A DNA stretch of 64,000 nucleotides from positions 48,226 to 112,225 of the IMG/VR virus record IMGVR_UViG_2974513674_000001; one strand, written 5' to 3'. A program made the position numbers and the translations under genes. Positions 1,756 to 61,960 of this stretch are shown one piece after another. The notes beneath the pieces are model-generated. The model saw only the letters and a list, made by a program, of their open reading frames with translations, ran no database searches and had not been told where the DNA came from. Numbering within the stretch: position 1 is the stretch's first letter; each line of letters starts with the position of its first letter. This DNA comes from a virus. Taxonomy: Duplodnaviria > Caudoviricetes.

Positions 1756-3840
1756 ATGGATCGCACCCAACGCATCGTCATCATGCGAGAGGCAATCACG
1801 AAGATTGCCCAAATCTTGACGGACAGCAAAGTCCTCGTCACCCAAGCGGGTGTGAAGGCATTCGTCAAGTACGACGACCGCACGCACAAGGCAACTCGGG
1901 TGAACATCCCGATGATCCCGGACGACGCCAGCGACGAGCTGATCGAAGGGATTCAGGGCTTCCTTGACAGCGAAATCTCCAAAGTCCTGTACGCAGACGG
2001 CAAGTCGAACCTGCGCGCAGCTCATGAGAACATGAGCGGCCTGTACAACCCGCTTGAGTCCTTCTTCTGCGAGAAGGAAATGGTCAAGAACTTCGCGGGT
2101 TCGCGCCACAACCTGGCGAACATGCACCAGACCTTCGTGGACAAGTTCATCGAGCCGAAGCTGAAAGAAGCCCTCGCGAACGGTGCCGAAGAGCAAGAGC
2201 TGTTCCAAGTCCTCGCGATCCCAGCACTGCGTGCCTGGGGCGGCCAGAAGTTCTTCATCGACTACATGAGCGACAAGTGGTCGCTGATCGCCGGCATTCA
2301 GAAGCAGCTCGACCCAGTCGCCAAGAAGATGCAGGGTATGACCAAAGCGTCTGACTGCTACGACATGGCGAAAGAGATTCGCAACGTCGTGATGGGCGAA
2401 CCCCCTGAAGGCGACGGCGATAACCCGTTCGGTGACGAAGACCCGAGCAAGTCCGGTAAGGGCGGCGGAGGTGGAGGCGCAGGTGGTCGCGGTGGCAAGT
2501 CAGGCGCGAAGGGCAAGCAGCCTCCGAAAGCAAACAAGGGTGCCGGCGCAGGCGAACTCGGTGACGAAGAAGACGAAGACCCAAGCGCTGCCGGCGGTGG
2601 TGGCAAGCCCGAACTCGAAGACGACGAGAAAGAAGAGGGTGAGGACGGCGAAGAGGATGATGATGACCTCGACGACGATGAAGAGGACGAAGGCGATGAC
2701 GAAGGTGATAAGCCTGAGCGTCGTGAAGAAGAGTCCGGTGAGGGTGGTGACGGCATCAGCTCTCAGCAAGAGAACCAGGGTCCGAAAGAGGACACTGAGT
2801 CCGCTCAGTCTGAATACGGTGGCGCCAACTACCTGAAAGACTTCGACTGGAACAAGACCCAGGACATCGGCACTGAGTTTGGCCAGTACGTCAGCGACCT
2901 GTGCTCCACTGAAATGGCTGAAGAGGACTACACCGTCTTCACCCGTGAGTGGGACCAACTCGAAGCTCCAAAAATCCCATCGTCGTACAGCCCAAAATGG
3001 CTCGAAGACATGGAGAGCGCAATCGCGGGCATGGTCGGCCCAGTGTCTCGCAACCTTGAGCGTGCGTTTGCAGCCCGGAACAAGTCGCTCACCCAGCAGG
3101 GTCTGCGCAAAGGCAAGATGTCGTCGAACAACCTGTATCGACTCGTCGCCGGCGACGACCATATCTACAAGAGCAAGATCGAGCACAAGACCCGGGAGAT
3201 TGCCGTGTCGCTGGTGATCGACTGTTCGGGCTCGATGGGTGGCTCCAAGATCCACACTGCCATGTGCAGCGCCTGGGTACTTGCTGACGTCCTGGGTCGC
3301 CTGGGTGTCGAGTGCGAAATCATGGGCTTCACCACCGGTGACCTGTACGCACAGCGGTCGAAAGACCTCTACAAAGAAATGTGCGACGAGCACGCCGCCG
3401 GCAGGGAATGGGACCGCTGCGAGCCACTGCGACTGCCGATGTTCAAGACCTTCAAAGAGAAGTTCTCCATCGAAGTCAAGAAGCGGATGGCCAGCTATGC
3501 GCACGTCCAGTCTTCGATGGCATCGAACATCGACGGCGAGTCGATCCAGTATGCCTACGAGTCTCTGAACCGACACGCCAATCGGGGTAAGAAGAAAGGC
3601 AAGATGATGATCGTCTTCAGCGATGGTCAGCCAGCAGGTGGTGTATCCAGTGCCAAGCTGAACGCCCACTTGAAAGCAGTGGTCAAGCGGATCGAGAAAG
3701 ACGGTACGAATATCGTCGGCGTCGGCATCATGTCCAACGCTGTGCAGCACTTCTACCGTAAGAACGTGAAACTGGACAACGTCGCCGACTTGCCGGGCAT
3801 CGTCCTGAATCAGTTGCGGGACGCGCTGCTTGCCAGCTAA
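1756..3840 (+). CDS. CobT-like von Willebrand A domain protein
   Basis: MIDAS DCSGSM and FSDGQP motifs, long acidic/Gly linker; start moved to ATG 1756, downstream of the promoter. Confidence 0.85.
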   Translation: MDRTQRIVIMREAITKIAQILTDSKVLVTQAGVKAFVKYDDRTHKATRVNIPMIPDDASDELIEGIQGFLDSEISKVLYADGKSNLRAAHENMSGLYNPLESFFCEKEMVKNFAGSRHNLANMHQTFVDKFIEPKLKEALANGAEEQELFQVLAIPALRAWGGQKFFIDYMSDKWSLIAGIQKQLDPVAKKMQGMTKASDCYDMAKEIRNVVMGEPPEGDGDNPFGDEDPSKSGKGGGGGGAGGRGGKSGAKGKQPPKANKGAGAGELGDEEDEDPSAAGGGGKPELEDDEKEEGEDGEEDDDDLDDDEEDEGDDEGDKPERREEESGEGGDGISSQQENQGPKEDTESAQSEYGGANYLKDFDWNKTQDIGTEFGQYVSDLCSTEMAEEDYTVFTREWDQLEAPKIPSSYSPKWLEDMESAIAGMVGPVSRNLERAFAARNKSLTQQGLRKGKMSSNNLYRLVAGDDHIYKSKIEHKTREIAVSLVIDCSGSMGGSKIHTAMCSAWVLADVLGRLGVECEIMGFTTGDLYAQRSKDLYKEMCDEHAAGREWDRCEPLRLPMFKTFKEKFSIEVKKRMASYAHVQSSMASNIDGESIQYAYESLNRHANRGKKKGKMMIVFSDGQPAGGVSSAKLNAHLKAVVKRIEKDGTNIVGVGIMSNAVQHFYRKNVKLDNVADLPGIVLNQLRDALLAS

Positions 3841-3930
3841 ACCCCATAGCTTCCCCAAACGTGCGCTCTTACAATGAGCGCACTCAAACGAAACAAGCAA
3901 TTTCAATTTTAAACAAACGAGGATTCACCA

Positions 3931-5157
3931 GTGAGCGATAAAATCAAGTGCGAAATCTGCGGCGAAGAAGTTCACAGCATCGCCAACCACCTGAAGACTG
4001 CGCACAACGAGGACTCGGCCAAGCCGATGGACCTCGAAACTTATCGCGCTACCTATCCGGGCGCTGAAATCTTGTCCGAGCTGGGCAAGAAGAAAATGGC
4101 CGAAATGAAAGCCAAGCGTGAAGCTGAAGAAGCCAAGACCGCTGCTGCGAACCCTGAAGCTGGCGCCAAGCCTGCTGCATCGACCAACCCGGACATCGCG
4201 AAGGTCTTCTTCCACGAAGTCTTCAAGTTCCCGAAGAGCCCCAAGTCGGCCTTCACCAAAGCCGGCACCGGCATCCCTTGCACTGCTGACGCCCGTGATA
4301 GCAGCGTCGATGGTCACATGATCCCGGCCTGGTCCGACAACTACATCCTGAACCCAGACCTGACGAAGACCGTCATGATGGCGTTCGAGATTCGCACCCC
4401 GATCTTCCTGTATGGTCACTCGGGTGTGGGCAAGTCGTCGATCTTCAAGCAAATGTGTGCCGGCCTGAACCGCCGTCTGTTCCGCTTCCAGCACACCGTT
4501 GACACCGAAGAGTCGCACATCGTTGGTCAGTGGGTCGTCAAGCCTCACATCAACCCGGATGGCTCTGCTGTATCGGTCACTGAGTTCGAGCTGGGTCCAT
4601 TGCCAATGGCCATGCTCAACGGCTGGACCTACCTGGCTGACGAAATCGACCGTTCGTCTCCGACTGTTCTGTCCGCGTATCAAGCGATTCTCGAAGGCGA
4701 GCCGCTGATCATCAAGAACGCCCCTGCTCACCTTCGTGTGATCAAGCCGCACCCGCTGTTCGCGTTCGCTGCAACTGGTAACACCAACGGCACCGGTGAC
4801 CAATCCGGTCTGTACCAAGCAACTCTGACCCAAGACGCCGCGACCATCGAGCGTTTCGGTGTTGTAGCGATGGTGGACTACCCACCAGAGAAGCAAGAAA
4901 TCGCCATGATCGCAGCAGCGACTGGTCTGTCCGAAGCTGACGCGAAGCGTATTCGCCAGTTCGCTGACGAGATTCGCACCAAGTCGTTCCCGAACATCGT
5001 GTCGCTCACCATCGGCCCGCGTGTTGCGATCAACATCGCTCGCATCGGCATGATGAAGGCTGACTTCGTAGAAGGCGCGCTGTATGCCTACTGCAACCGT
5101 CTGCCTGAAGCTGAGAAAGAAGCAGCACTGGGTGTCGCGAAGCGTATCCTGGCGTAA
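3931..5157 (+). CDS. CobS/MoxR-like AAA+ ATPase with N-terminal C2H2 zinc finger
   Basis: Walker A GHSGVGKS, Walker B LADEID, sensor ATGN, Arg finger ERF; CEIC...H...H; adjacent to vWA gene. Confidence 0.88.
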   Translation: MSDKIKCEICGEEVHSIANHLKTAHNEDSAKPMDLETYRATYPGAEILSELGKKKMAEMKAKREAEEAKTAAANPEAGAKPAASTNPDIAKVFFHEVFKFPKSPKSAFTKAGTGIPCTADARDSSVDGHMIPAWSDNYILNPDLTKTVMMAFEIRTPIFLYGHSGVGKSSIFKQMCAGLNRRLFRFQHTVDTEESHIVGQWVVKPHINPDGSAVSVTEFELGPLPMAMLNGWTYLADEIDRSSPTVLSAYQAILEGEPLIIKNAPAHLRVIKPHPLFAFAATGNTNGTGDQSGLYQATLTQDAATIERFGVVAMVDYPPEKQEIAMIAAATGLSEADAKRIRQFADEIRTKSFPNIVSLTIGPRVAINIARIGMMKADFVEGALYAYCNRLPEAEKEAALGVAKRILA

Positions 5158-5173
5158 CATCGGCAGTAACTGA

Positions 5174-5202
5174 GAAAGCAGGTCTTCGTGACCTGCTTTT
5201 TT
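5174..5202 (+). terminator. intrinsic terminator
   Basis: AAAGCAGGTC-ttcgt-GACCTGCTTT followed by T-run. Confidence 0.75.
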
Positions 5203-5226
5203 GTCTTCATCGTAGGAGTTCGGCGG

Positions 5227-5769
5227 ATGCAATTCGATAAACCCGGATGTTTCGGGAACGCAATCACCTACAGCGTCAAGTCCAAGTCATGCCAGGAGTG
5301 CGAAGAGAGCCACTCATGCGCTCTGGCAGCCCGTCAGCGGATCGAAGAGCTTCGATCCCTCATCAGCGTAGAGGCGATCCTCAAAATGTCCCACAAGAGC
5401 CCGGAGAAGCCTGTAGAGAAGACCAGGTTCGACGCTGACTTGCCTGAGACAGCCCAGAAACTAATCGCTATGCTTCCTGACAACGCGCAGCGCACAGCAG
5501 CGCAGTTACTCAGGCTGAAGGTGAACTTCAGAAAGCACCTGATCGAAGGCATCAACCCGATCAAGAACCAGAAGCCGCTCGCGGTAGCCGTTCTGTTCGA
5601 CCTGCTTCTGAAAGGGCCAGTAGAACGCATCACCTATCTGTTGGAGCTGAAGAATGTTCTCGGACACAGCCCGGCAGTAGCAGCAAGTCAAGCCGCAATT
5701 GGGGTCGCTGTCGTCGTGGGGCTGGGTATTGCCAAACGCGAAGGCGAGAATCTGATTATCAGGAGATAG
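5227..5769 (+). CDS. hypothetical protein (N-terminal Cys cluster)
   Basis: AGGAG RBS; C...CxxC...C; directly upstream of dnaE. Confidence 0.7.
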   Translation: MQFDKPGCFGNAITYSVKSKSCQECEESHSCALAARQRIEELRSLISVEAILKMSHKSPEKPVEKTRFDADLPETAQKLIAMLPDNAQRTAAQLLRLKVNFRKHLIEGINPIKNQKPLAVAVLFDLLLKGPVERITYLLELKNVLGHSPAVAASQAAIGVAVVVGLGIAKREGENLIIRR

Positions 5770-5770
5770 A

Positions 5771-8700
5771 ATGAACAACCTCTTAGGGGCCAAGACCCAC
5801 TTTAGTCTCGGCGAATCCATCTACGACCCGGAAGCCCTCGTCAAAAAGGCAGAGCTTGCCGGGTACGATGGCATTGTCGTGACCGATGTCGAATCAATCG
5901 ACTCGATGCCAATCCTGGCGGGCAAGGCGAAGGGCCTGCAAGTAGGACTGGGCGTGCAAATCTCAGTCGTCCAAGACCTGACCTGGGTCGCAGCCAAACG
6001 GGGCGAGCCCAAGCGCGCGCCAAACCCGTTCTTCATGCCCACTCTGTTTGTTCGGAACGATGCCGGCTTCGCGGACTTGTGCGAGCTGTTGACCCTCGCC
6101 CAGAGCGAAGATCACTTCTGCACGAAGCCAAGCCGTATGCAGATCGACCTGAGCGAGCTGCTGGCGTTCGTGCAGCGGGGCAACCTAACGATGACGCTGG
6201 GAAGCGCTTATAGCGCGCTACAGCACAAGCAACGCGAAGCGCTGCTAGATGCGTGCTGCGATGTCTTGGACGTCTCACAGATGCTCTGTGAGCTGATCCC
6301 AGTTAGCAGCGCATTCTATGATCGACACAACTTCAACACGCTGAAGCTGATGCAGGAACGGGGCATCGAAGGCATCGTTACCAGGCCGACCCTCAATCAG
6401 AAAGACGAGGTCAGCTTCCGCAACACGATGAACTCGATCCTGTCGCACGACAAGGTCGACAGCACCTGGCGCCGCGAGCCGCCCGAAGACCTGCACATCA
6501 TCGAAGCAACCGAAGTGGTCACACACGTCGGCACCCTGATCGAACGCATGGTCAAAATGGGGTTCGATGATGACGCGGCAACGGACATGATCAATCAGGC
6601 TTGGTGCAAGAACCAGGCGTACTTCACTGACCACCCGTACAAGTGGTCGAAGATGACCCCGAGCCTGCCCGTCATGTCTGCCAACCCAATGGCTGACATC
6701 GTCGCGATCTGCAAGCAAGGCTGGAAAGAGCGCCTGGGCAAAGAGGTGTTCGGGTACAAGCCTGACGCAAGCCTGCTGCCCAAGTACCAGGAGCGCCTGA
6801 AGTATGAGCTGTCGATTCTCCAGAAGATGGAGTTCGAGCCGTACTTCCAGCTCGTTCACTACATCGTCAACTGGTCGAAGAACGACGGCATCATGGTTGG
6901 CCCGGGTCGGGGTTCGGTAGGTGGTTCGCTCGTTGCGTACCTGATGGGGATCACCGACGTGGACCCGATCCGCTTCGACCTGATCTTCGAGCGCTTCATC
7001 AACCCGGAACGTATCGACTTGCCCGACGTCGACCTCGACTTCATGTCCAGTCGCCGTCAAGACATCGTCGACCACCTGGTGAGCAAGTTCGGCGACGAGC
7101 GTGTCGTCCAGATCGCCAACTACAACACCATCGCCGGTGCTGGTGCGATCCAAGCGGTGGGCAAGGCTCACGGCCTGCATGAGAGCCAGTACGAGTGCTC
7201 GAAGCTGGTTCCGAAAGAGTCGGGCGTGCCAATCCCTCTTGAGAAAGCGGTCGCGTTCGTGCCCGAACTTGAGAAGCTGGCTCTGAACCACCCTGAAGTC
7301 TGGGCAGCGTCCGTCGGCCTGCAAGGCACCTTCAAGAACTTCGCCAAGCACGCAGCCGGTGTCGTCGTAGCCGGTACTGACATCGTGGGTCGCGGCGTAG
7401 TGAACCGGCGCCAGGGTGTGGGTATCGTGAACTGGGACAAGCGGGTCGTCGAAGACTTCGGCTTGATCAAGCTCGACGTGCTGGGTCTGTCCAACTTGGA
7501 TATTCTCCGTCTCGCACGGGACTACATCCGCGAAGCGCACGCAATCGAGGTCGACTTCACCACGCTTCCGCTCGACGACAAGAAAGTCCTGGACAGCTTC
7601 GCAGCGGGCAAGACCTATGGCGTGTTCCAGTTCGAGTCTGGGGGTATGCGCAAGCTGCTCAAGGAACTCGGCAGCGGGGGCAATCTGACCTTTGAAGACT
7701 GTGTCGCCGCAACAGCACTGTTCCGACCCGGCCCAATCCAAGCTGGCCTGATGGACCTGTACGTGTCGATCAAGAAGGAATTCACCGAGCCGGAGTATCT
7801 GCACCCGAACATGAAAGCCGCACTGGAGCCCACGATGTCTGTGATGGTCTACCAGGAGCAGGTCATGCAAATCTCCCGTGACCTCGCCGGCTACACGTTC
7901 CCAGAGGCAGACGGCCTGCGGAAGATCATGGGTAAGAAAGACCCGGTCAAGATGGCCGAGCAGCGCGACAAGTTCGTCGATGGCTGTATCGCTACGTCTG
8001 GATTGGATCACGCAACCGCAACCTTCATCTTTGAGCAGATCGAGAAGTTCGCTGGCTACGGCTTCAACAAATCCCACTCCGTCGCGTACACCCTCATTTC
8101 CTACATGACCATGTGGGTGAAGGTCTACTACCCAGAGGCGTTCTACGCCGCGTGCTTGTCGATCTTGGACGAGCAGAAGCTCTCAGGGCTAGCCAAAGAC
8201 GCGCAAGCGAACGACATCTACATTGTCCCGCCTGACATCAACCACAGCTCAGGGCGGTACGAGGTGGGCTTTGATGCGGCACGGGGTCAGAAGATTCTGT
8301 ACGCACCGTTCCAGTCGATCAAAGGCATGAGCGACAAGTCGGCCGCTGCGATTGTGGCAGCACGTCAGAAGCTGGGTCGCGGCTTCAAGAATAAAGCGGA
8401 GCTGATCCTCGAAGTGGACCGGCGCGCTTGCAACAAGCGTCACCAGGAAATGCTGGACAAGATCGGGGCATTCGCCAAGATCGAACCTGGCCAACTGGAC
8501 GCCCGACACCCGGATCGGTTGCGTGACCAGAAGGAGCTGCTGCCGGGCATCGTCGTCAGCAACGTGAAGGCGGAGAGGGTGATCGAAATCACTGGCGATG
8601 TCAGCGCAGAGCTGATCCAGATCGTCGACGACTTCCAAGCACACAAAGGCTGCGACGGCTGTCCGTTCATTGGTCGACCGCACCCTATGCCAGTCCTGGG

Positions 8701-9235: not shown

Positions 9236-10516
9236 ATGAAAGAAGCAAACGACATCGACGAGCTGGAAGCCCTGCTTTCTGGTCTTAACGAAGACGAACT
9301 GAACCAGCTCGAAGAGTTGGATACGCCTGTGGCCAAGCCAGCGCCTGTCACCGACGACGATGTCACCGACGCAGAACTGATCGGCGAAATCGAAGACGAG
9401 CCAGCCGCAGCACCTGCAAAGCCTGTGAAGCGTGTGAAACGTCTCAAGCCTCTGCCGGAAGAAACCCCGAAGCCGACTGCTGAAGCGTCTGACGAAGACG
9501 CAGAGCTGGCCGCCCTGGCAGAACTCGACACTCAACCTGTGATCGAGAAGGCCCCAGAGCCTGAACCTGAGCCCGAACCCGAGCCTGAAGTAGAAGCCGG
9601 CAACCCAGGCACCGGCGCAAGCGCTGCTGAAATCGTAGCCGAGCAAGTGATCGACCTGCTGACCACCCTGCCGCCGCAGTACGGCCTGGCTGAAGACGAA
9701 GACCTGTCTGAAATCTTCGACCCGATCCTGAACCGCATCACCGAGAACTCGAAGATCCACTTGATCGAGAAGGCGTTGCGCAAGGCTCTGATCAAGAAGA
9801 CTGGCCTGGACCCGACCGGCATTGTCACCCCACTCGAAGAACAGCCTGCGAAGACTGTAACCACCGAAGAAGTGACCGTGCATGTAGAGCCTGTCGTCGA
9901 GAAGACGCCTGAACCCGAACCCGAGCAAGCCGGCGACAGCGATGCTGAACTCGAAGCCTTGCTGGCAGCAGTCCCTGAAGTAGCCCCAGCTCCGAAGGCA
10001 ACTGTCACCTCCCCGTCGAAGCCGGTAGCAGTAACCCCGACTCGCAAGGCCGGTGGTCTGAACACCTTCATCGACGCTGACCAGTTGCAGAAAGACCTGC
10101 ACTTCACCGAGTTGACCATCAACGATGGCATGACCCGGCAAGCAGCGCTGTTCGCTCACTACGCCCGGTTGTCTGCTGACGCCACGTATCAGTCTGACCG
10201 TGCGAAGCAGCAAGTGGACCTCCTGGAAGCGCAGCTCAACCAGAAGTTCCGTGATTCGCTGGTCACAGCCGGCACCAAGTTCACTGAAAAATCCATCGAC
10301 TCGATGGTCATCCAGGACAGCAGCTACCAGGCCGCCCAGGAACGCGCTCACGAAGCGAAGGCTATCGCGTCGATGGTTGCATCTGCGGCGGACAGCTTCC
10401 GTCACCGCAAAGACATGCTGATCCAAGTTGGTGCAGACCTGCGCCTGGAGAAGCAGGGTGAACTTCGCATGAAGGCGCACCCGGGTCAGAGCGCCCTTGA
10501 TCAACTGGAGAAATAA
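9236..10516 (+). CDS. acidic Pro/Glu-rich protein with C-terminal helical domain (possible UvsY-like recombination mediator)
   Basis: low-complexity N-terminus with PE repeats; helical C-terminal ~130 aa; lies near SSB and RecA. Confidence 0.5.
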   Translation: MKEANDIDELEALLSGLNEDELNQLEELDTPVAKPAPVTDDDVTDAELIGEIEDEPAAAPAKPVKRVKRLKPLPEETPKPTAEASDEDAELAALAELDTQPVIEKAPEPEPEPEPEPEVEAGNPGTGASAAEIVAEQVIDLLTTLPPQYGLAEDEDLSEIFDPILNRITENSKIHLIEKALRKALIKKTGLDPTGIVTPLEEQPAKTVTTEEVTVHVEPVVEKTPEPEPEQAGDSDAELEALLAAVPEVAPAPKATVTSPSKPVAVTPTRKAGGLNTFIDADQLQKDLHFTELTINDGMTRQAALFAHYARLSADATYQSDRAKQQVDLLEAQLNQKFRDSLVTAGTKFTEKSIDSMVIQDSSYQAAQERAHEAKAIASMVASAADSFRHRKDMLIQVGADLRLEKQGELRMKAHPGQSALDQLEK

Positions 10517-16292: not shown

Positions 16293-18226
16293 AAATCCTG
16301 AAGGCGATCATCGACAACTTCGCCGCCATTGGGCACATCGAGGTCGAGCTGAATGACAAGGGCTTGGTGCTGATCCAGGGCGACAACAAGGACGACACTT
16401 CCCAGGACTCGAACGGTTCGGGCAAGTCGACCCTGCCGGATGCGCTGTGCTGGGCCTTCTACGGCGAGACTGCCAAAGGTCAGTCCGGTGACAAGCTGGT
16501 CAACCGCACCGCCAAGAAAGACTGCGCCGTTGAAGTGCATGTGGTCGACGAAGACACCGACGACGTGTTCCGCATCAGTCGTCACCGCAAGCACAAGACC
16601 TACAAGAACATGCTGCGCCTGGAAGTGCTTCAGGGCTCGAACTGGAAAGACCTCACCGGCGGCACCGACAAGCTGACCCAGGCGCTGGTCGAGAAGGTGA
16701 TCGGCTGCAACTACGAAGTCTTCAAGTCCGCGATCTACGCTGGCCAAGAAGCCATGCCCGATCTGCCAGGCATGACCGACAAGCAACTGAAGGTGCTGAT
16801 CGAAGAGAGCGCCGGCATTGCACAGCTTCAAGCAGCCTCTGACATCGCGAACCGCCACGTCAAAGACCGCAAGCTGATCGTTCAGGATCACCAGGGCAAG
16901 ATCGACAAGCTCCAGTCCAACATCGAATTGCTGGACAGCAACATCGTGACCCTCAAAAGCCGTTCGGAAGCCTGGGAAATCACTCAAGAAGCCAATATTG
17001 GCATCGCTGAAGACAACGTGACCACGCTCGAAGCCTCGTTCGACGACGCCCTGGGCGACCGCATCACGAAGAAGAAGACCCAGCTCGCTGACAAGTCCTC
17101 TGAAATTCGCACGCAGATCGCCGGCAGTGATGCTGAGCGTCTGCAAGAGCGTGTGCTGGCTGATGCGAAGGCGAAGGCTGACGCAGGCGAGTCGAACGCT
17201 GCCCACGCTTATGACACGGCCAAGAACCGCGTCAGCCACGCAGAGCACGCCTTGTCGCACGCCGGTGAGTCCGGTCACTGTGACACCTGCGGTCACGAAC
17301 TCGACGCCAGCAACGTCGAGACGGCTAAAGCCAACGCTCAAGCAACGCTCGACAGCGAGAAATCAGCGCTTGCAGCAGCGAAGAAGGCACTGTCTGTAGC
17401 GCACGACAGCGCTGATACAGCGACGAAAGCGCTAGCAGAGCATCGCGACAACATGACAGACGTTAGCGCGCTCACAAGCGAGCTACAGACGATCAGCGAG
17501 AACAGCGCGAAGCTGGACGCTGCGCTGACCGCCTGGAATCGTCAGAAGACTGGTCTTGAAGCGGCGAAGGCCAACGTCCAGGCTGAGCGCGACAAGAAGA
17601 ACCCCTACGGTCAACAGATCACCGACGCCGAAGCGCAGATCGACACGATCAACGCCAAGATCGAGGAAGTCGAAGAGCGCCGGGTCGAAGCAGCCAAAGA
17701 GCTGTTCATCGCCGAAGAAGCGGCGCGAGTGTACAACCAGGCCGGCGTGCGAGCGCACATCCTGGACACCGTGACGCCGCACCTGAACGCCCGCACGTCG
17801 CACTACCTGTCCACGCTGACTGACGGCAACGTCTCCGCTATCTGGTCGACCGTCAGCAAGACTGCCAAAGGCGAGCTGCGCGAGAAGTTCGTGATCGACG
17901 TGGAGTCCAAGACGGGCGGCGAGTCCTTCAAAGACCTGTCGGGCGGTGAGAAGCGCAAGGTTCGCCTGGCGTGTGCAATGGCTCTGCAAGACCTGGTTGC
18001 AAGCCGGGCCAACAAGCCGATCAAGCTGTTCATCGCGGACGAAATCGACACCGCACTCGACGCAGCCGGCCTGGAACGCCTGATGGCAATCCTCGATGCG
18101 AAGTCGCGAGACAAGGGCACCGTTCTGGTAGTCTCCCACTCCGACCTCCGCGACTTCATCCGTAACAGCGTGACGGTCGTCAAGCAGGGCGGCAAAGCTA
18201 CCCTGGAAGCCAACACTATCCTGTGA
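16289..18226 (+). CDS. sbcC: SbcC/Rad50-like ATPase
   Basis: Walker A NGSGKS, coiled coil with CDTC zinc hook, LSGGE signature, IADE Walker B; start at ATG overlapping the sbcD stop. Confidence 0.92.
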   Translation: MKILKAIIDNFAAIGHIEVELNDKGLVLIQGDNKDDTSQDSNGSGKSTLPDALCWAFYGETAKGQSGDKLVNRTAKKDCAVEVHVVDEDTDDVFRISRHRKHKTYKNMLRLEVLQGSNWKDLTGGTDKLTQALVEKVIGCNYEVFKSAIYAGQEAMPDLPGMTDKQLKVLIEESAGIAQLQAASDIANRHVKDRKLIVQDHQGKIDKLQSNIELLDSNIVTLKSRSEAWEITQEANIGIAEDNVTTLEASFDDALGDRITKKKTQLADKSSEIRTQIAGSDAERLQERVLADAKAKADAGESNAAHAYDTAKNRVSHAEHALSHAGESGHCDTCGHELDASNVETAKANAQATLDSEKSALAAAKKALSVAHDSADTATKALAEHRDNMTDVSALTSELQTISENSAKLDAALTAWNRQKTGLEAAKANVQAERDKKNPYGQQITDAEAQIDTINAKIEEVEERRVEAAKELFIAEEAARVYNQAGVRAHILDTVTPHLNARTSHYLSTLTDGNVSAIWSTVSKTAKGELREKFVIDVESKTGGESFKDLSGGEKRKVRLACAMALQDLVASRANKPIKLFIADEIDTALDAAGLERLMAILDAKSRDKGTVLVVSHSDLRDFIRNSVTVVKQGGKATLEANTIL

Positions 18227-26864: not shown

Positions 26865-26981
26865 AATCGCGGCGAAAAATTAGACGATTTTTGCCACGTA
26901 CCTTACACAAAGCCCCATCAAGTCCCTCGTTCTGTGTGACATAGTGATCATGACTATTGAACGCAGAACGAGGGATTTTTC

Positions 26982-27287
26982 ATGCGAGCGAATATGAGAG
27001 CGATACAGACGTCCTCCGCGTTAGTTGTGCTCATTGCTGCAAGTGTTCTAGTTGTCGTCGCTGCACACGCTACAGAGCGTCACAGCGACACGCACAGCGA
27101 GCACAGACATAGCAGACACGAAACGCGACACATACACGCAGAACGCGAGCGCTACGAGCACCCGCCGCTGCACAGCGAAGGCACTCGGGAAGATGCCGAC
27201 GCCTATCCCTCGTTCGATGATCCGGCTGACTACCGTGAAACCAATCGCTACAACCCATACTCCGATGAAACCTACGACGAAGAGTGA
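26982..27287 (+). CDS. signal-peptide-bearing His-rich hypothetical protein
   Basis: hydrophobic N-terminus; contains a CC/GG-free patch at 27017-27161. Confidence 0.5.
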   Translation: MRANMRAIQTSSALVVLIAASVLVVVAAHATERHSDTHSEHRHSRHETRHIHAERERYEHPPLHSEGTREDADAYPSFDDPADYRETNRYNPYSDETYDEE

Positions 27288-36906: not shown

Positions 36907-37423
36907 ACTGGTTCCATCCAACCAGTGGGGCACGAACCTGCGCAGCGTCCTGGCTCCGAAAGTCTGGGACTCGCTCCGCAAAGCCTGCTACGAACGTGCC
37001 GGCCACCGCTGCGAGATTTGCAATGGCGTCGGTCGCACCCACCCGGTCGAGTGCCATGAAACCTGGGAGTACACCGATGGCCCCGTGTGGATTCAGAAGC
37101 TCACCGGGTTGATCGCGCTGTGCCCAAGCTGCCACAAGGTGAAGCACATTGGCTTCGCGCTGACGCAGGGTGATCGCGCTTTCATGGCTGCGCTGAACCA
37201 CCTGGCCAAAGTCAACGGCTGGTCGCCCACGCGGACGTATGACTACGTGAACAACCAGTTCGAGATTCACCGGGTTCGCAGTCAGATGCACTGGGTCATG
37301 GACCTCGACTGGCTCGACAACATGCAAAGCTACATCGACGAGACAGCAACCGCAGCACGGCAAGCTCGCTCTGAGCGCGCTGCTGCGACGATAGCGAATA
37401 TGACTCGCAAGCGTGACGCTTAG
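36887..37423 (+). CDS. HNH-type nuclease
   Basis: CEIC...ECHE...LCPSCHKVKH; GGAGG RBS. Confidence 0.75.
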   Translation: MPKLTCELVPSNQWGTNLRSVLAPKVWDSLRKACYERAGHRCEICNGVGRTHPVECHETWEYTDGPVWIQKLTGLIALCPSCHKVKHIGFALTQGDRAFMAALNHLAKVNGWSPTRTYDYVNNQFEIHRVRSQMHWVMDLDWLDNMQSYIDETATAARQARSERAAATIANMTRKRDA

Positions 37424-37529
37424 AGCGAATCGCTCTTAAACGAGCGCACAGAGCGTCCAACAGAGCTGAGTGGGCGCCAAGTAGTGCCACTCAGCAGTCT
37501 GTAGAATTGCAGACTTGAAGGAGAGTTTT

Positions 37530-52468: not shown

Positions 52469-52743
52469 CGCTCTGGGAGAGCAGGCAGTGGAAGCCACCC
52501 GGAAGCCGAAAGACCTACAAGATCAGCCTGCTCATTCGCTGTAGAATCGCACTCACAGCAAGAGACAAACGAAGTACAGCACAGACGCAGCGGGAAGCGC
52601 TCTGAGAGCTTCACAGAGCGACGAACGAGCTACAGAGCAGCAGAGACGCGCAGAACATCAAACAAGCGTCACAGCAGCTACAGAATTCAGCCAGGTCAGG
52701 GCGCAAATACTGACCCTCTCGTCAGCCCGCTTGAGGGCTGTTG

Positions 52744-52784
52744 GAACCTCTAGAAGTCTCTCCTTCTTCTAGAGGTTCATTTTT
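52744..52784 (+). terminator. hairpin / possible terminator
   Basis: GAACCTCTAGAAG...CTTCTAGAGGTTC followed by ATTTTT. Confidence 0.55.
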
Positions 52785-52810
52785 ATCAGAAAGGCTGGCG
52801 CCCCAAGGGA

Positions 52811-53160
52811 GCCGCGGTCAGAACCAAGCCGCGGGCACCACTAGAGCCGCGGTGTCTCTTCTCTCCTATCAGCCGCGGTAAGCCGTCTCTCCCCTCTCTA
52901 TGGTCAACCAAGGCTCGGACCCCAACAGTGCCGCGGCAAACCTTGAACTGGAGAACCACGGCTTAATCCGGTGTCCCAGAAATTCCCTATAGGCGCCGAT
53001 ATAGAGACAGGCTGGCTTTGTACCTAGGCTGTGAGACCACGGCGCACCTCACCAGGGTACGGGGAGCCGTGGCGTCCCTTCACAGCCTGATGGTGTACCG
53101 CGGCGGGCTTGGGGCCTGGCCCTCCCAGAAGGCAACCACGGCACTGCTGTGGCCGCGGCT
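52811..53160. repeat. CCRYGG (mostly CCGCGG) cluster around a 34-bp core element
   Basis: about 11 CCRYGG hexamers; core 52979-53012 is 30/34 identical to 55164-55197. Confidence 0.75.
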
Positions 53161-53259
53161 TCAGTGTGGCTTGCAAGCGTTTACCTGCACATGCCATTTG
53201 CAAGCGTTTATTATGTATGCAGATCGAAGCACACGACTTCGGCAATACGAGAGCAAGAC

Positions 53260-53819: not shown

Positions 53820-53964
53820 GCAGCAAGAAGCCACCTTTGCCCGGAGGGTGGCTTCGCCACAGAAGCGCCGCGGCGGATTCCTGGCTGCCGACACATACCT
53901 ATAGCAAGCGTTTACTATGATCTCACTGAAGCGAACGACTTCAGACCACTGAGAGATAGTCACC

Positions 53965-55106: not shown

Positions 55107-55149
55107 CCAGAACCCGGGCTAACTACCCGGGCTTCTTGAGAGCTATAGA

Positions 55150-55328
55150 GCCGCGGTGCTCTGGAAATTCCCTATATGGCCCGATATAGGGACAGGCGGC
55201 CCTTGGTAGAGCGGAAATGAGTCACCGCGGCGCTAATACGGGAGCGGGCCGGCGAGCCACGGCAAAAGCCGCGGCGCTGTTCCCAGGCTGCGGGTTCGGT
55301 GGTGTGGTTTCTGAGGTGGGCCGCGGCG
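55150..55328. repeat. second CCRYGG cluster with core element
   Basis: 5 CCRYGG hexamers; core at 55164-55197. Confidence 0.72.
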
Positions 55329-55427
55329 AGTGCCGGGCTGGGGCTCTGGGAGCTGGTTTTCAGCTCTGGGGCTTTTCTGCTTTCTTGTGATCAGTATAAA
55401 CGCTTGCACAGGCTTTGCAAGCGTTTT

Positions 55428-55619
55428 TTAGACTTTCCCGAAAAACTTTTTGAAAGCCAGTTTCCGAGCTTCCCACTTTTCTGCCTTGAGTCGATCCTGC
55501 TCCACAAGCTCGTCCCAGCGATAGTACGTTTTGACTCCCAGAACGTCCCGTTTGAATTCGCTCCAAGCCCAGCCCAAGAAGACGAAAACACATACTACTG
55601 CGAAAATCATGCTCATCAT
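55428..55619 (-). CDS. small membrane-anchored protein
   Basis: AAGGA RBS; hydrophobic N-terminus; sigma70 promoter TTGCAA-17-GATAAT on the minus strand (about 55653-55681). Confidence 0.6.
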   Translation of the reverse strand: MMSMIFAVVCVFVFLGWAWSEFKRDVLGVKTYYRWDELVEQDRLKAEKWEARKLAFKKFFGKV

Positions 55620-55738
55620 GTCCTTGCTTCCTTATTGTGTGTGCGTGCGATGATTATCGAATATTCGCTTGCTCATTGCAAGCATTATTTCGATATAAGC
55701 ATTATTCTTTTCCGATCTAAGAAAAATCGAAAATTCGC

Positions 55739-55766
55739 TTGCACACGTCTCGAATTCGCGTAGAAT
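55739..55766 (+). promoter_or_regulatory. canonical sigma70 promoter with A-rich UP element
   Basis: TTGCAC-16-TAGAAT, preceded by GAAAAATCGAAAATT. Confidence 0.75.
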
Positions 55767-55842
55767 TCAAATTGTCGAAACGCACAGCGCTAGACGAACT
55801 TAAACGAAGCGCAAAACGCGCTCATTAAACGAGAGAACTAAA

Positions 55843-56397
55843 ATGACTACTATCAACGCTAAAGCAGAATCTTTCAAAAACGTTTTTGCTACTGCTGCTG
55901 TTAACTACGCTCAAACTAAAGAGCAAGCGCAGCAAAACGCAGAACAAGCGCAGTCTGAAGAAGAGCGCGAAACTTTCGCTGCTGCTGCTAAGAAAGCTGA
56001 CACACACGCTCGCTACACTGAAGCGCTGTCGAACATGAGCGAAAAAGCGCTTGCAAGTCTGAGCAAGTACAAAGTTAACGCTGAAGCGCTTGCAGAACAA
56101 TCGCGTGAACTGAAAAAACGCTCTATCGCGATTCTTGAAGCGCTCGCAACAAAACAGCGTGTGAATGATCGCGCACTTGACGCAGTATTGCAGTACATCG
56201 TTAAAAACGATGCTGCTGCAATGAATCTTGAGCAAGTGCGTCATCAAATGCAGCATGATACTTTGACTCAAGCGCAATACTTCAAAACTTGCGCAATCTT
56301 CTTCAACTTCGCGCAATACTCGAAGTCTGAAAAGACTATCAGCTTCAATAAAGACGCAATCGTTCTTAAAGAGCTGATCGCAATCTACAGCGCTTAA
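55843..56397 (+). CDS. 184-aa helical protein with no Gly, Pro or Trp (candidate immediate-early regulator)
   Basis: own sigma70 promoter, GAGAG RBS and terminator; whole unit has no CC/GG. Confidence 0.85.
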   Translation: MTTINAKAESFKNVFATAAVNYAQTKEQAQQNAEQAQSEEERETFAAAAKKADTHARYTEALSNMSEKALASLSKYKVNAEALAEQSRELKKRSIAILEALATKQRVNDRALDAVLQYIVKNDAAAMNLEQVRHQMQHDTLTQAQYFKTCAIFFNFAQYSKSEKTISFNKDAIVLKELIAIYSA

Positions 56398-56406
56398 TCA
56401 ACACAC

Positions 56407-56440
56407 AAGCGCTACAGCACACGCTGTAGCGCTTTTCTCT
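56407..56440 (+). terminator. intrinsic terminator built without CC/GG
   Basis: AAGCGCTACAGC-acac-GCTGTAGCGCTT followed by TTCTCT. Confidence 0.8.
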
Positions 56441-56464
56441 CAGTCTAGCAGTCGAGCTATCAAT

Positions 56465-56788
56465 ATGAGTCATTCGCACGCTGTACGCGCTCACAGACAC
56501 GCTCTCACAGTAGATACACGCATGTACGCTACATGCGCACGCAATGCGCTGTATGAGCTGCGCTATGTGAAGCGCTCACAGCGCTACTATCTGCATGTAG
56601 CTAACAGCGTGAGCGTGATTGTAGACGCTGCTACAGCAAGCGCTGTATACGCTGCTATGATGCGTCATGTAGTGCGCACTACAGCTAAAGACAAGCGCGC
56701 TACTAGTGCGCGCACTAGTGTATATACAATGCGCAGTGATATACGTGCGCTGTTACTTGCTGAAAATATGAGCAAGTATGCGCACTAA
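56465..56788 (+). CDS. possible basic protein (also no Gly, Pro or Trp)
   Basis: 107-aa ORF with weak RBS; may be non-coding. Confidence 0.35.
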   Translation: MSHSHAVRAHRHALTVDTRMYATCARNALYELRYVKRSQRYYLHVANSVSVIVDAATASAVYAAMMRHVVRTTAKDKRATSARTSVYTMRSDIRALLLAENMSKYAH

Positions 56789-56798
56789 GTCACATTGA

Positions 56799-56827
56799 AC
56801 TAGTGCAACTTAGTTAGTTGCACTAGT
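56799..56827. repeat. perfect 12-bp inverted repeat
   Basis: ACTAGTGCAACT-tagtt-AGTTGCACTAGT; related palindrome ACTAGTGCGCGCACTAGT at 56702-56719. Confidence 0.8.
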
Positions 56828-56902
56828 CTAGTTGTCAAAGTCTTAGAAGGGATTTTTAAAGTCGCGCCCTATTGGCGCCAATGTGCCGGACCCCACAGAA
56901 GT

Positions 56903-56995
56903 CCCCTTACACAACCAGGGGCCGGAGTTAAACCACTAACCCCTTACACAACCACCCCGGAGACACCAAAAATGACAGAACCCCTTACACAACCA
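56903..56995 (+). repeat. three perfect 15-bp direct repeats CCCCTTACACAACCA
   Basis: copies at 56903, 56940 and 56981. Confidence 0.85.
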
Positions 56996-57436
56996 GCCCC
57001 TGAGCAAGAAGTCCCCAGGCTCCAAGTCCCCGAGCCACGTAACTGGCTTGACCGCTTATGGAACAGGTGCGGTTTCCTCACTGCCGAGCAACGCCTGGCA
57101 GTACACCGAGACGCAGACGCCAGGTTACACGCTGCCCGGCTCCGCCGGCTCGAAGAGAATGGCGGGCTCGACCCCCATGACTCTGACGACTACATGCAAA
57201 TCCAGATCAACCGTCACTACGCCCAGGAGGAAGCCAAGCGTCGTAGCCGCACGATCAGAGACCTCTCACGCCTTATCCTGATCGCCCAGCTACCGACCCA
57301 CGATAAGCACCAGTTGCATCACCCCGACGACGTGAAGCTCGCCGTTGAGCAAGCCACGCGAATCTACGACATGACCAAGAACGCTCGCATTGAGCCGTTA
57401 CCTGGCGCACGTCAAGTCCCTAACGACCCGGAGTGA
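56972..57436 (+). CDS. hypothetical protein
   Basis: GGAG RBS. Confidence 0.6.
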   Translation: MTEPLTQPAPEQEVPRLQVPEPRNWLDRLWNRCGFLTAEQRLAVHRDADARLHAARLRRLEENGGLDPHDSDDYMQIQINRHYAQEEAKRRSRTIRDLSRLILIAQLPTHDKHQLHHPDDVKLAVEQATRIYDMTKNARIEPLPGARQVPNDPE

Positions 57437-61809: not shown

Positions 61810-61960
61810 TCTGGGAAGCTGCATTAGAGCGCGCTAGTAGCGCGCTTTTTTGTGAGTGCGACACTGACGCACAGAGCACGCGAAAACGTCTCAGAACGCA
61901 CGGGAGAGCGTCTGCCAGCGACAGATTGTCGAGCTGATCAGACGCAGAACGCACAGACGC

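What the first reader, a model, noticed from the sequence alone, without database searches (positions are those of the whole stretch)
55713..56849. 1.14-kb island with no CC or GG dinucleotide, containing a complete transcription unit
Seen: reading line by line I found no CC or GG from 55713 to 56849, and only one more back to 55632, whereas elsewhere they occur every few bases. The island contains a canonical sigma70 promoter (TTGCAC-16-TAGAAT), a GG-free RBS (GAGAG), a 184-aa CDS and a terminator whose stem (AAGCGCTACAGC) also avoids CC/GG; most other terminators in the window use CCC/GGG stems. It is not general restriction-site avoidance, because GAATTC, GCGC and AGCT sites remain. Inference: CC/GG carries a modification in virion DNA that blocks host RNAP, so the first-expressed gene must lack it. 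An alternative is escape from CC/GG-PAM CRISPR systems (type I-F CC PAM, Cas9 NGG) or another CC/GG-targeting defence.
Basis: partly seen in the sequence, partly recalled or inferred. Interest (0 to 1): 0.95.

Follow-up and report, generated by a model that had tools for sequence, protein, structure and literature searches.

The report
CC/GG-free early gene cassette in phage
A Pseudomonas syringae phage and its relatives keep one small two-gene unit free of the DNA step CC/GG, so its proteins have no glycine, proline or tryptophan, which implies that an unidentified DNA-level factor reads that short word and this unit must escape it.

Summary
Window 55713-56849 (1137 bp) has no CC or GG. The next-longest such run in the whole 112-kb genome is 145 bp, and 121-149 sites were expected.

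The window is a Nickievirus-type phage of Pseudomonas syringae. Every relative examined with 40% or more protein identity keeps the same island (659-1490 bp), despite 125-207 substitutions per pair. Selection therefore maintains it.

The island is a self-contained cassette:
- conserved promoter(s);
- a 184-aa protein, confidently modelled as a helical hairpin plus winged helix;
- a terminator;

It always ends at AAAGTCTTAGAA, 67-69 bp before two to four CCTTAYA repeats.

Two distant lineages ban only VCC/GGB and use TCC/GGA freely (36 of 36 sites). A paralogue lying outside the cassette has normal CC/GG. The rule therefore belongs to the DNA compartment and targets a defined double-stranded word.

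- no DpdA and no common DNA methylase is encoded;
- a ParB-ABC-GNAT-like operon does not co-vary with the island;
- a plain type I-F CC PAM does not predict tolerance of TCC.

My best guess (0.4) is escape of a first-expressed cassette from a DNA-targeting reader, as with the pre-early DNA of phage T5.

Earlier notes of this scan report similar islands in other phage families.

The parts
55107..55400 (.). Upstream flank that is very rich in CC/GG: four CCGCGG sites, two CCCGGG sites, G-tracts and the palindromic element AAATTCCCTATA..TATAGGGACAGGC. A similar (apparently paralogous) module lies at 52800-53200.
   Evidence: the same kind of dense flank is seen in L010, L013 and L014
55428..55619 (-). 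Divergent 63-aa ORF with a hydrophobic N-terminus. Its 5' end lies in the fringe where only TCC-type sites occur.
   Evidence: a small minus-strand CDS is annotated here in ZY21, Nican01 and hairong
55575..55712 (.). Left fringe of the island. It has no VCC/GGB; its only CC/GG sites (55622, 55630, 55712) are TCC. It includes the conserved TTTTCCGATCT.
55656..55766 (+). Two tandem copies of ATCGAAWATTCGCTTGCWCA, 70 bp apart. The second supplies the -35 TTGCAC (55739-55744), followed by a 16-nt spacer and the -10 TAGAAT (55761-55766).
   Evidence: D12; conserved as CGCTTGCAC-N16-TA..AT in L014 and L018
55831..55835 (+). GG-free ribosome-binding site GAGAG, 7 nt before the ATG.
55843..56397 (+). 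Gene A, 184 aa, pI 8.5, with no Gly, Pro or Trp. It has an N-terminal helical hairpin (residues 3-63) and a C-terminal winged helix (106-184).
   Evidence: 74 homologues, about 63 of them without G/P/W; alignment A1; AlphaFold2 pLDDT 95.8; MarR/TubR/ArsR-like Z 7-8.8, rmsd 2.2-2.5 over 71-76 residues
56407..56434 (+). CC/GG-free hairpin, a 12-bp perfect stem followed by TTTCTCTC. It is a terminator or attenuator between genes A and B.
   Evidence: I14
56465..56788 (+). Gene B, 107 aa, pI 10.4, with no Gly, Pro or Trp. The motif SVYTMRSDIRA and the C-terminal AH are conserved. The model shows helix, three strands, then two helices; no fold was assigned.
   Evidence: (A2)
56799..56827 (+). Second CC/GG-free hairpin, a 12-bp perfect stem.
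   Evidence: I22
56837..56848 (+). AAAGTCTTAGAA, the conserved right edge. The first GG follows at 56849.
   Evidence: Found, exact or with up to 2 mismatches, at the right edge of 16 of the 18 loci checked and 67-69 bp before the first CCTTAYA repeat; not matched in L020 and L009
56903..56996 (+). Three direct repeats of CCCCTTACACAACCA (56903, 56940, 56981). The third overlaps the start of the next gene (56972-57436). They may be iterons or operators.
   Evidence: D5; no other cluster in the genome; one single near-copy lies elsewhere; core CCTTAYA kept in all lineages, including G003, G004 and G005

Best explanation
The island is an early gene cassette that selection keeps free of a short double-stranded DNA word. 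That word is VCC/GGB in the deepest lineages and every NCC/GGN in Nickievirus proper.

Shown:
- The purge is strand-symmetric.
- It covers promoter, leader, two genes, terminators and spacers.
- It stops within 0-32 bp (mostly under 20 bp) of the end of a conserved motif.
- It has survived hundreds of substitutions.
- It belongs to the genomic compartment and not to the gene family.

Inferred, as the most likely mechanism: the word is the recognition element of a factor that reads incoming phage DNA, most probably a host DNA-targeting defence such as a CRISPR effector with a CC-type PAM or another nuclease with a short site. The cassette is the part of the genome that host RNA polymerase must transcribe before the phage has neutralised that factor. 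This parallels the pre-early first-step-transfer DNA of phage T5.

Also inferred: gene A is a dimeric winged-helix DNA-binding protein that acts on the CCTTAYA repeats directly downstream, either to switch on the following early operon or to start replication. The role of gene B is unknown.
For: - Reality and size of the purge.
- Conservation in ZY21, Nican01, hairong, phiK7B1 and about a dozen metagenomic relatives.
- About 26% of random substitutions in the island would create CC/GG, yet 125-207 mismatches per pair created none (log10 P -16 to -27).
- A defined word: 36 of 36 CC/GG in the 1290-bp zone of L023/G004 and 30 of 31 in G003 are TCC/GGA, against a 17.5% background share. There Gly is coded by GGA, and Trp is followed by an A-starting codon.
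- A property of the compartment: G003 carries a paralogue outside the zone with normal CC/GG (46 in 405 bp). The cassettes hold one, two or three different genes.
- Early or anti-defence setting: small genes; a 'host nuclease inhibitor' is annotated downstream; an Acb2/Tad1-like gene lies in L013.
- Precedent: in T5 only the pre-early region is vulnerable to CRISPR interference (PMC5389539).
- Gene A fold.
- Fixed geometry of the edge motif and repeats in the loci checked.
Against: - Nothing shows that the cassette enters or is expressed first. The physical ends of the genome are unknown, no raw-read run was available, and metagenome contigs read straight through the edge motif.
- A plain type I-F PAM predicts that all four NCC are banned equally (PMC6868425). 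That fails in G003 and G004.
- I did not test whether P. syringae hosts carry a CC-reading system.
- Five smaller CC/GG-free patches elsewhere in the genome (88-145 bp, 13-23 sites expected, two of them fully inside coding sequence) are not explained by escape of one early cassette.
- Earlier notes of this scan report similar islands in phages of very different hosts. I did not check these; if true, they argue against any one host-specific system.
Confidence: 0.4

Rival explanations
1. The phage marks its own DNA. Progeny DNA would carry a covalent modification, or a tightly bound co-injected protein, at VCC/NCC. The mark would protect the genome but hinder host RNA polymerase or DNA-binding proteins. 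The cassette, and perhaps the smaller patches, would be mark-free pads that work at once after injection.
For: - The banned word differs between lineages, as the specificity of an enzyme would.
- The purge follows transcription-unit borders.
- Further significant CC/GG-free patches exist, one of them starting at a TGTAGAAT extended -10.
- A ParB_N x2, ABC ATPase and GNAT-like operon sits just before the terminase genes. ParB-like proteins accompany known DNA-modification systems (from my own knowledge).
- Earlier scan notes propose the same writer.
Against: - No TGT/DpdA, C5- or N4/N6-methylase is encoded.
- The ParB-ABC-GNAT-like operon is intact in G005, whose island is only 2-3 fold depleted with no banned word. 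Its ABC and GNAT-like genes were not found in G003, which has an island, although that record is only 73% complete.
- Intergenic DNA overall is not more depleted than coding DNA.
- I know of no precedent for a phage base modification that blocks host RNA polymerase; T4 glucosyl-hmC DNA is transcribed normally (own knowledge).
Confidence: 0.25
2. The cassette is immune to the phage's own take-over factor. An early phage protein, possibly A or B, or a nuclease would bind or cut DNA at the degenerate word VCC to shut down the host. Its own gene would be kept free of the word so that it stays expressed.
For: - Gene A is a DNA-binding fold and gene B is very basic.
- The purge is limited to their own cassette.
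Against: - The rest of the phage genome is full of the word and would be hit as well.
- The winged helix looks like an ordinary site-specific binder, and a plausible specific target (the CCTTAYA repeats) lies next to it.
- No nuclease is linked to the island.
Confidence: 0.08
3. The constraint acts on RNA or translation. The mRNA would avoid GG and CC to escape an RNA-binding repressor or RNase (GGA-binding Rsm/CsrA, or a GGAG-cutting RegB-like enzyme), or to avoid Gly, Pro and Trp codons when their tRNAs are attacked.
For: - The Shine-Dalgarno sequence is given up (GAGAG).
- The proteins lack G, P and W.
- The phage carries tRNA-Gly and tRNA-Trp genes.
Against: - Both CC and GG are absent on both strands.
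- They are also absent in promoter, spacer and terminator DNA and at codon junctions.
- In G003 and G004 GGA, the very Rsm/SD core, is the tolerated form and is used freely in both orientations.
Confidence: 0.04
4. The island is a mutational or compositional artefact, caused by local hypermutation (for example a CC-specific deaminase), by foreign origin of the segment, or by chance in a low-GC stretch.
For: The GC content of the island is lower (46% against 57%), and TA and A are enriched.
Against: - Zero sites where about 121 are expected from the island's own composition.
- Sharp borders at the same motif in the related loci checked.
- Both proteins are under clear purifying selection.
- The SD is sacrificed.
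- TCC is tolerated and VCC is not, which a simple CC deaminase would not give.
Confidence: 0.02

Closest known systems
Pre-early (first-step-transfer) DNA of phage T5
   Same: Both are a small block with strong host-type promoters that must work before the rest of the genome is safe. In T5 only this block is vulnerable to CRISPR interference (PMC5389539). From my own knowledge it also lacks EcoRI sites, and adding such sites makes T5 restriction-sensitive.
   Different: The T5 block is about 10 kb, lies in a terminal repeat and is known to enter first. Here the block is 0.7-1.5 kb, no terminal repeat or physical end is known, and the thing avoided is a 2-3 nt word rather than a 6-bp site, at the cost of three amino acids.
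Motif avoidance in phage genomes (restriction-site avoidance, CRISPR PAM depletion)
   Same: In both, selection removes a short word that a DNA-targeting system needs. CC is the PAM of type I-F systems, which are common in Pseudomonas.
   Different: Known avoidance is genome-wide and partial. This one is total, local and limited to one cassette. Two lineages ban VCC only, whereas a type I-F screen found all NCC active (PMC6868425).
Anti-CRISPR operons with an Aca repressor
   Same: Both have a strong early promoter, small genes of unknown family and one helix-turn-helix protein in a self-contained unit near other counter-defence genes.
   Different: Here the DNA-binding protein comes first, is 184 aa with a winged helix, and has no Pfam, PHROG or Aca match. 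No inhibitor function is shown, and no such word ban is described for acr loci in the papers I searched.
Iteron-type replication origins with an adjacent winged-helix initiator gene (plasmids, phage lambda O/ori)
   Same: A gene for a winged-helix protein lies directly beside two to four conserved direct repeats. The phage belongs to the wider SSU5-type phage-plasmid kinship (PMC7969092). The cumulative GC skew has its minimum at 104-106 kb.
   Different: The repeat spacing is 35-41 bp rather than about 22 bp. There is one winged helix instead of two. The skew signal is weak, and no DnaA boxes or AT-rich unwinding region were looked for.

Membership tests
Type I-F CRISPR PAM avoidance | The avoided word is the PAM (CC on either strand). 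| tested here: met
   No CC or GG in 1137 bp of the window, nor in the islands of Nickievirus relatives.
Type I-F CRISPR PAM avoidance | All four NCC are avoided alike, since all four are active PAMs. | tested here: not met
   G004 has 36 of 36 and G003 30 of 31 remaining sites as TCC/GGA, at or above background density. The published screen found all NCC active. The feature is met only in the Nickievirus core.
Type I-F CRISPR PAM avoidance | The hosts carry the system and hold spacers against these phages. | not tested
   Relatives cannot be drawn for a virus record. No host genome handle was obtained. The papers read gave no data on P. syringae.
T5-like first-step-transfer region | The block lies at the DNA end that enters first, inside a terminal repeat. 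| not testable with these tools
   Only assembled contigs of runs were on offer. G001 has just a 127-bp assembly overlap. Contigs read through the edge motif.
T5-like first-step-transfer region | Host-type promoters drive genes that act before the rest of the genome. | tested here: inconclusive
   A conserved TTGCAC-16-TAGAAT promoter and its own terminators are present. No expression data exist.
Phage DNA base-modification systems (DpdA 7-deazaguanine; C5, N4 and N6 methylases) | The genome encodes the writer enzyme. | tested here: not met
   PF01702, PF00145 and PF01555 gave no match in the complete genome, while the control genomes matched.
ParB-ABC ATPase-GNAT operon as writer of the mark | The operon is present where an island is present and absent or broken where it is not. 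| tested here: not met
   The operon is present in G000. It is intact in G005, which has only weak depletion. ABC and GNAT-like genes were not found in G003, which has an island, though that record is 73% complete.
Winged-helix (MarR/ArsR/TubR-like) DNA-binding proteins, for gene A | A winged helix-turn-helix fold. | tested here: met
   pLDDT 95.8. Residues 106-184 align to TubR, AntR, MepR-like and SarA chains at Z 7.7-8.5, rmsd 2.2-2.9 over 71-76 residues. These Z values are in the middling range, so the fold is assigned but no family.
Winged-helix (MarR/ArsR/TubR-like) DNA-binding proteins, for gene A | Sequence membership of a curated family. | tested here: not met
   No Pfam or PHROG family at a meaningful E-value.
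Iteron origin plus initiator | Conserved direct repeats lie next to the gene of the DNA-binding protein. | tested here: met
   Two to four CCTTAYA repeats follow the cassette in every lineage except G006/L020, where none was found, 67-69 bp after the edge motif where that motif is present.
Iteron origin plus initiator | The protein binds the repeats and replication starts there. | not testable with these tools
   The only hint is a weak cumulative GC-skew minimum at 104-106 kb.

The most novel reading that the evidence does not exclude
Phages of several families would follow an undescribed design rule: the first cassette to be used is written without a 2-3 nt double-stranded word (VCC/GGB or NCC/GGN). 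A still unknown reader of that word would act on the rest of the incoming genome.
Probability: 0.45. Interest if true: 0.95.

Novelty: new variant of a known kind. Interest (0 to 1): 0.85.

Why it matters
A total ban on a two- or three-letter DNA word across a whole gene cassette is, as far as my paper searches show, undescribed. The ban is strong enough to remove glycine, proline, tryptophan and the Shine-Dalgarno sequence.

It implies a factor with near-dinucleotide specificity that matters in the first minutes of infection. It also gives a direct handle on that factor: the cassette, its sharp borders and the natural lineages with different banned words.

Nickieviruses are being developed for biocontrol of kiwifruit canker, so their counter-defence design has practical weight.

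Tried and rejected
- Physical genome ends. No raw-read run was listed and no RNA holder was listed. Two contigs that break just left of the island looked like ends. One has a 127-bp assembly overlap, meaning a circular assembly, and the other is an 84% fragment.
- The idea that AAAGTCTTAGAA plus three repeats is a lambda-like cos site, which would make the island the last DNA packaged and the first ejected. Three short metagenome contigs read through the motif, so the idea has no support, but it is not excluded.
- Host side. Gene A has no homologue in 185,579 bacterial and archaeal genomes, so no host handle was obtained.
- Family searches for genes A and B and their neighbours in Pfam and PHROGs found nothing. 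Rfam found only a tRNA in 51-64 kb.
- Fold search for gene B gave only middling helical matches, and no fold was assigned.
- A different banned word in the weakly depleted G005 module was looked for among 2- to 4-mers. None was found.
- A gene-content contrast between island-bearing genomes and G005 gave only one clean candidate, a 426-aa ORF at window 9236-10516 that is absent from G005. It has no family match and rests on a single genome.
- The claim that promoters and intergenic DNA in general avoid CC/GG was rejected at bulk level. Observed over expected is 0.84 for intergenic and 0.80 for coding DNA.
- The CCTTACACAA near-copy at 26901, beside the 145-bp patch, is probably chance.
- Paper searches for an earlier description of such islands found none.
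Full report
**1. The observation**

A computed scan finds CC at 55712 and the next CC or GG at 56849. That is a run of 1137 bp without either dinucleotide. The next-longest run in the window, and in the whole 112,225-bp genome, is 145 bp.

- From the island's own base composition about 121 sites are expected. From flank frequencies about 149 are expected. The log10 probability is about -56 to -70.
- No other strand-symmetric dinucleotide shows such a gap.
GAATTC (2), GCGC (32) and AGCT (7) also remain.

Two corrections are needed. First, the -35 matches the consensus in only 3 of 6 positions, and the simple scan does not list the site. It is, however, conserved in relatives. Second, the island holds a second gene and a second hairpin.

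**2. What the genome is**

The region matches Pseudomonas syringae phages of the genus Nickievirus: ZY21, phiK7B1, Nican01 and hairong, at 66-80% DNA identity.

- These are 112-kb siphoviruses with almost all genes on one strand.
- They have SSU5-like structural genes and a Pol III alpha, DnaB, primase, RecA and SbcCD replication set.
- A terminase phylogeny placed a Nickievirus (psageB1) with 3'-cos phages, but its ends were not determined (PMC8537276).

**3. Conservation**

- All four isolates have the same island, 1083-1125 bp long.
- Gene A has 74 homologues in metagenomes. About 63 of them contain no Gly, Pro or Trp.
- In loci from about a dozen further relatives down to 40% protein identity the island is 659-1490 bp. 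In L010, L013 and L016 it is leaky, with a few sites.
- About 26% of all single substitutions in the island would create CC or GG. Yet 125-207 mismatches per pair created none, giving log10 P of -16 to -27 per pair.

Selection is therefore still acting on the island.

**4. Anatomy**

From left to right the region contains:

- A flank very dense in CC/GG, with CCGCGG and CCCGGG sites, G-tracts and a CCCTATA..TATAGGG palindrome. A similar module lies at 52800-53200.
- A small divergent ORF.
- A fringe in which only TCC-type sites occur.
- Two tandem promoter-like repeats.
- Gene A, then a hairpin, then gene B, then a second hairpin.
- The 12-mer AAAGTCTTAGAA, after which the first GG follows at once.

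In almost all of the 18 loci examined the island ends at this motif; it was not matched in L020 or L009. Where present, the motif lies 67-69 bp before the first of two to four CCTTAYA repeats. In this genome such a repeat cluster occurs nowhere else; there is only one further single near-copy.

*Gene A* is modelled with pLDDT 95.8 as a long helical hairpin plus a C-terminal winged helix. The winged helix is MarR/TubR/ArsR-like, with Z 7-8.8 and rmsd 2.2-2.5 over 71-76 residues. It has pI 8.5 and no Pfam or PHROG family.

*Gene B* (107 aa, pI 10.4) is a conserved protein with invariant residues such as RSDIR and a C-terminal AH. No fold could be assigned.

Cassettes in relatives hold gene A alone, A plus B, A plus B plus a third gene, or A plus an unrelated small ORF.

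**5. The banned word**

The few CC/GG at the fringes and in leaky islands are nearly all TCC/GGA.

- In G004 (gene A homologue at 29% identity) a 1290-bp zone holds 36 CC/GG, all of them TCC/GGA. It holds no ACC, CCC or GCC. TCC makes up only 17.5% of CC contexts in the genome.
- In G003 the positional orthologue of gene A lies in a 675-bp zone with 30 TCC/GGA and one GCC. Gly is coded by GGA, and each Trp is followed by an A-starting codon. Both orientations occur.
- G003 also has a paralogue (P0073) about 2.3 kb upstream. It lies outside the zone and has normal CC/GG, 46 in 405 bp.
- G005 has the same edge motif and repeats. Its module is depleted only 2-3 fold, with no word banned outright.

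So the constraint is a double-stranded word. It is VCC/GGB in deep lineages and every NCC in Nickievirus proper. It attaches to the compartment and not to the gene, and it can relax.

**6. Who reads the word?**

*Own DNA mark.* The genome has no TGT/DpdA, no C5-methylase and no N4/N6-methylase. It does carry two ParB_N proteins, an ABC ATPase and a 293-aa protein. The nearest atlas clusters of that protein include GNAT acetyltransferases, which is only a lead. These genes lie just before the terminase genes.

This operon is intact in G005, where the island is weak. Its ABC and GNAT-like genes were not found in G003, which has an island, although that record is 73% complete. It therefore does not co-vary with the island, as two earlier notes of this scan also concluded for other genomes.

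*Type I-F PAM.* CC is the right word for the Nickievirus state. However, a full PAM screen found all four NCC equally active (PMC6868425), so tolerance of TCC is not predicted. I could not examine host genomes.

*RNA or translation level.* This is rejected because of the strand symmetry and the coverage of non-coding DNA.

*Bulk promoter avoidance.* Intergenic DNA is no more depleted than coding DNA.

There are nevertheless five smaller patches of 88-145 bp with 13-23 sites expected. One begins at a TGTAGAAT extended -10, and two lie fully inside coding sequence (one of them in sbcC). They remain unexplained.

**7. Why only this cassette?**

Any cleavage- or damage-based reader needs an explanation of why protecting 1 kb helps. 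The known precedent is T5, where only the pre-early, first-entering DNA is vulnerable to CRISPR interference (PMC5389539).

I could not show that the cassette enters first.

- The ends are unknown.
- Two contigs that break just left of the island are a circular assembly and a fragment.
- Short contigs read through the edge motif.

The geometry of the edge motif plus three repeats recalls both lambda cos (cosN plus R sites) and an iteron origin beside its initiator gene. The cumulative GC skew has a weak minimum here. Neither reading is tested.

**8. Verdict**

The finding is real, strongly selected and conserved. It is best described as an early cassette kept free of a defined 2-3 nt double-stranded word.

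| Reading | Weight |
|---|---|
| Escape from a reader of incoming DNA, such as a host defence (T5-like logic) | 0.40 |
| A phage-borne mark or coat | 0.25 |
| Other readings together | smaller |

I found no description of such islands in the papers searched. Earlier notes of this scan report the same kind of island in SSU5-like, Rhizobium and Methylobacterium phage-plasmids, in T4-like phages and in rumen phages. I did not verify those.

Noticed in passing
window 52527-52785: A small self-contained unit: an extended -10 (TGTAGAAT at 52541-52548), about 150 nt of A/C/G-rich and T-poor sequence with a single GG, then a strong hairpin with a T-run (52744-52785). It may be a small RNA. Rfam has no match for it.
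   Followed up: partly
window 52812-53153 and 55151-55327: Clusters of CCGCGG (7 and 4 sites), each next to a copy of AAATTCCCTATA..GATATAGRGACAGGC. These look like paralogous intergenic modules of unknown role. The same palindrome sits before the island in L023.
   Followed up: partly
window 53173, 53200, 53904, 57666 (+); 48183, 55407, 60044 (-): The motif TTGCAAGCGTTTAY recurs directly before -10-like hexamers. At 53880 and 57640 it is part of a 40-bp shared element (GCCGACACATRCCT..). This is possibly a phage-specific promoter class.
   Followed up: partly
window 17387-17515 (in sbcC), 27017-27161, 37360-37457, 52594-52691, 61815-61902: Smaller CC/GG-free patches of 88-145 bp where 13-23 sites are expected. 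The sbcC region is also depleted in Nican01. No explanation was found.
   Followed up: partly
G000 3383-7187 (L057), outside the window: A tightly packed operon of ParB_N, a ParB_N-like protein, a soluble ABC ATPase, a 111-aa protein, a 293-aa GNAT-like protein (atlas lead only) and a 113-aa protein. It lies directly before the putative small and large terminase genes. Most of the operon is conserved in G004-G007; the 111-aa gene was found only in G007.
   Followed up: partly
L009 2851-3402 against L009 5674-6195: G003 carries two paralogues of gene A. One has normal CC/GG. The other lies inside the VCC-free zone before the CCCTTATAC repeats.
   Followed up: yes
window 9236-10516: A 426-aa ORF after dnaE with no family match. 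It is present in G003, G004, G006 and G007 but was not found in G005, the genome whose island is relaxed.
   Followed up: partly
L013 8317-9000 and 10307-10537: A relative carries a resolvase gene and a gene with a weak Acb2/Tad1-hairpin match a few kb after its island. This fits a counter-defence neighbourhood.
   Followed up: no
window 26982-27287: A 101-aa ORF with a signal-like N-terminus and a His/Ser/Arg/Glu-rich low-complexity stretch. It coincides with the 145-bp CC/GG-free patch.
   Followed up: no
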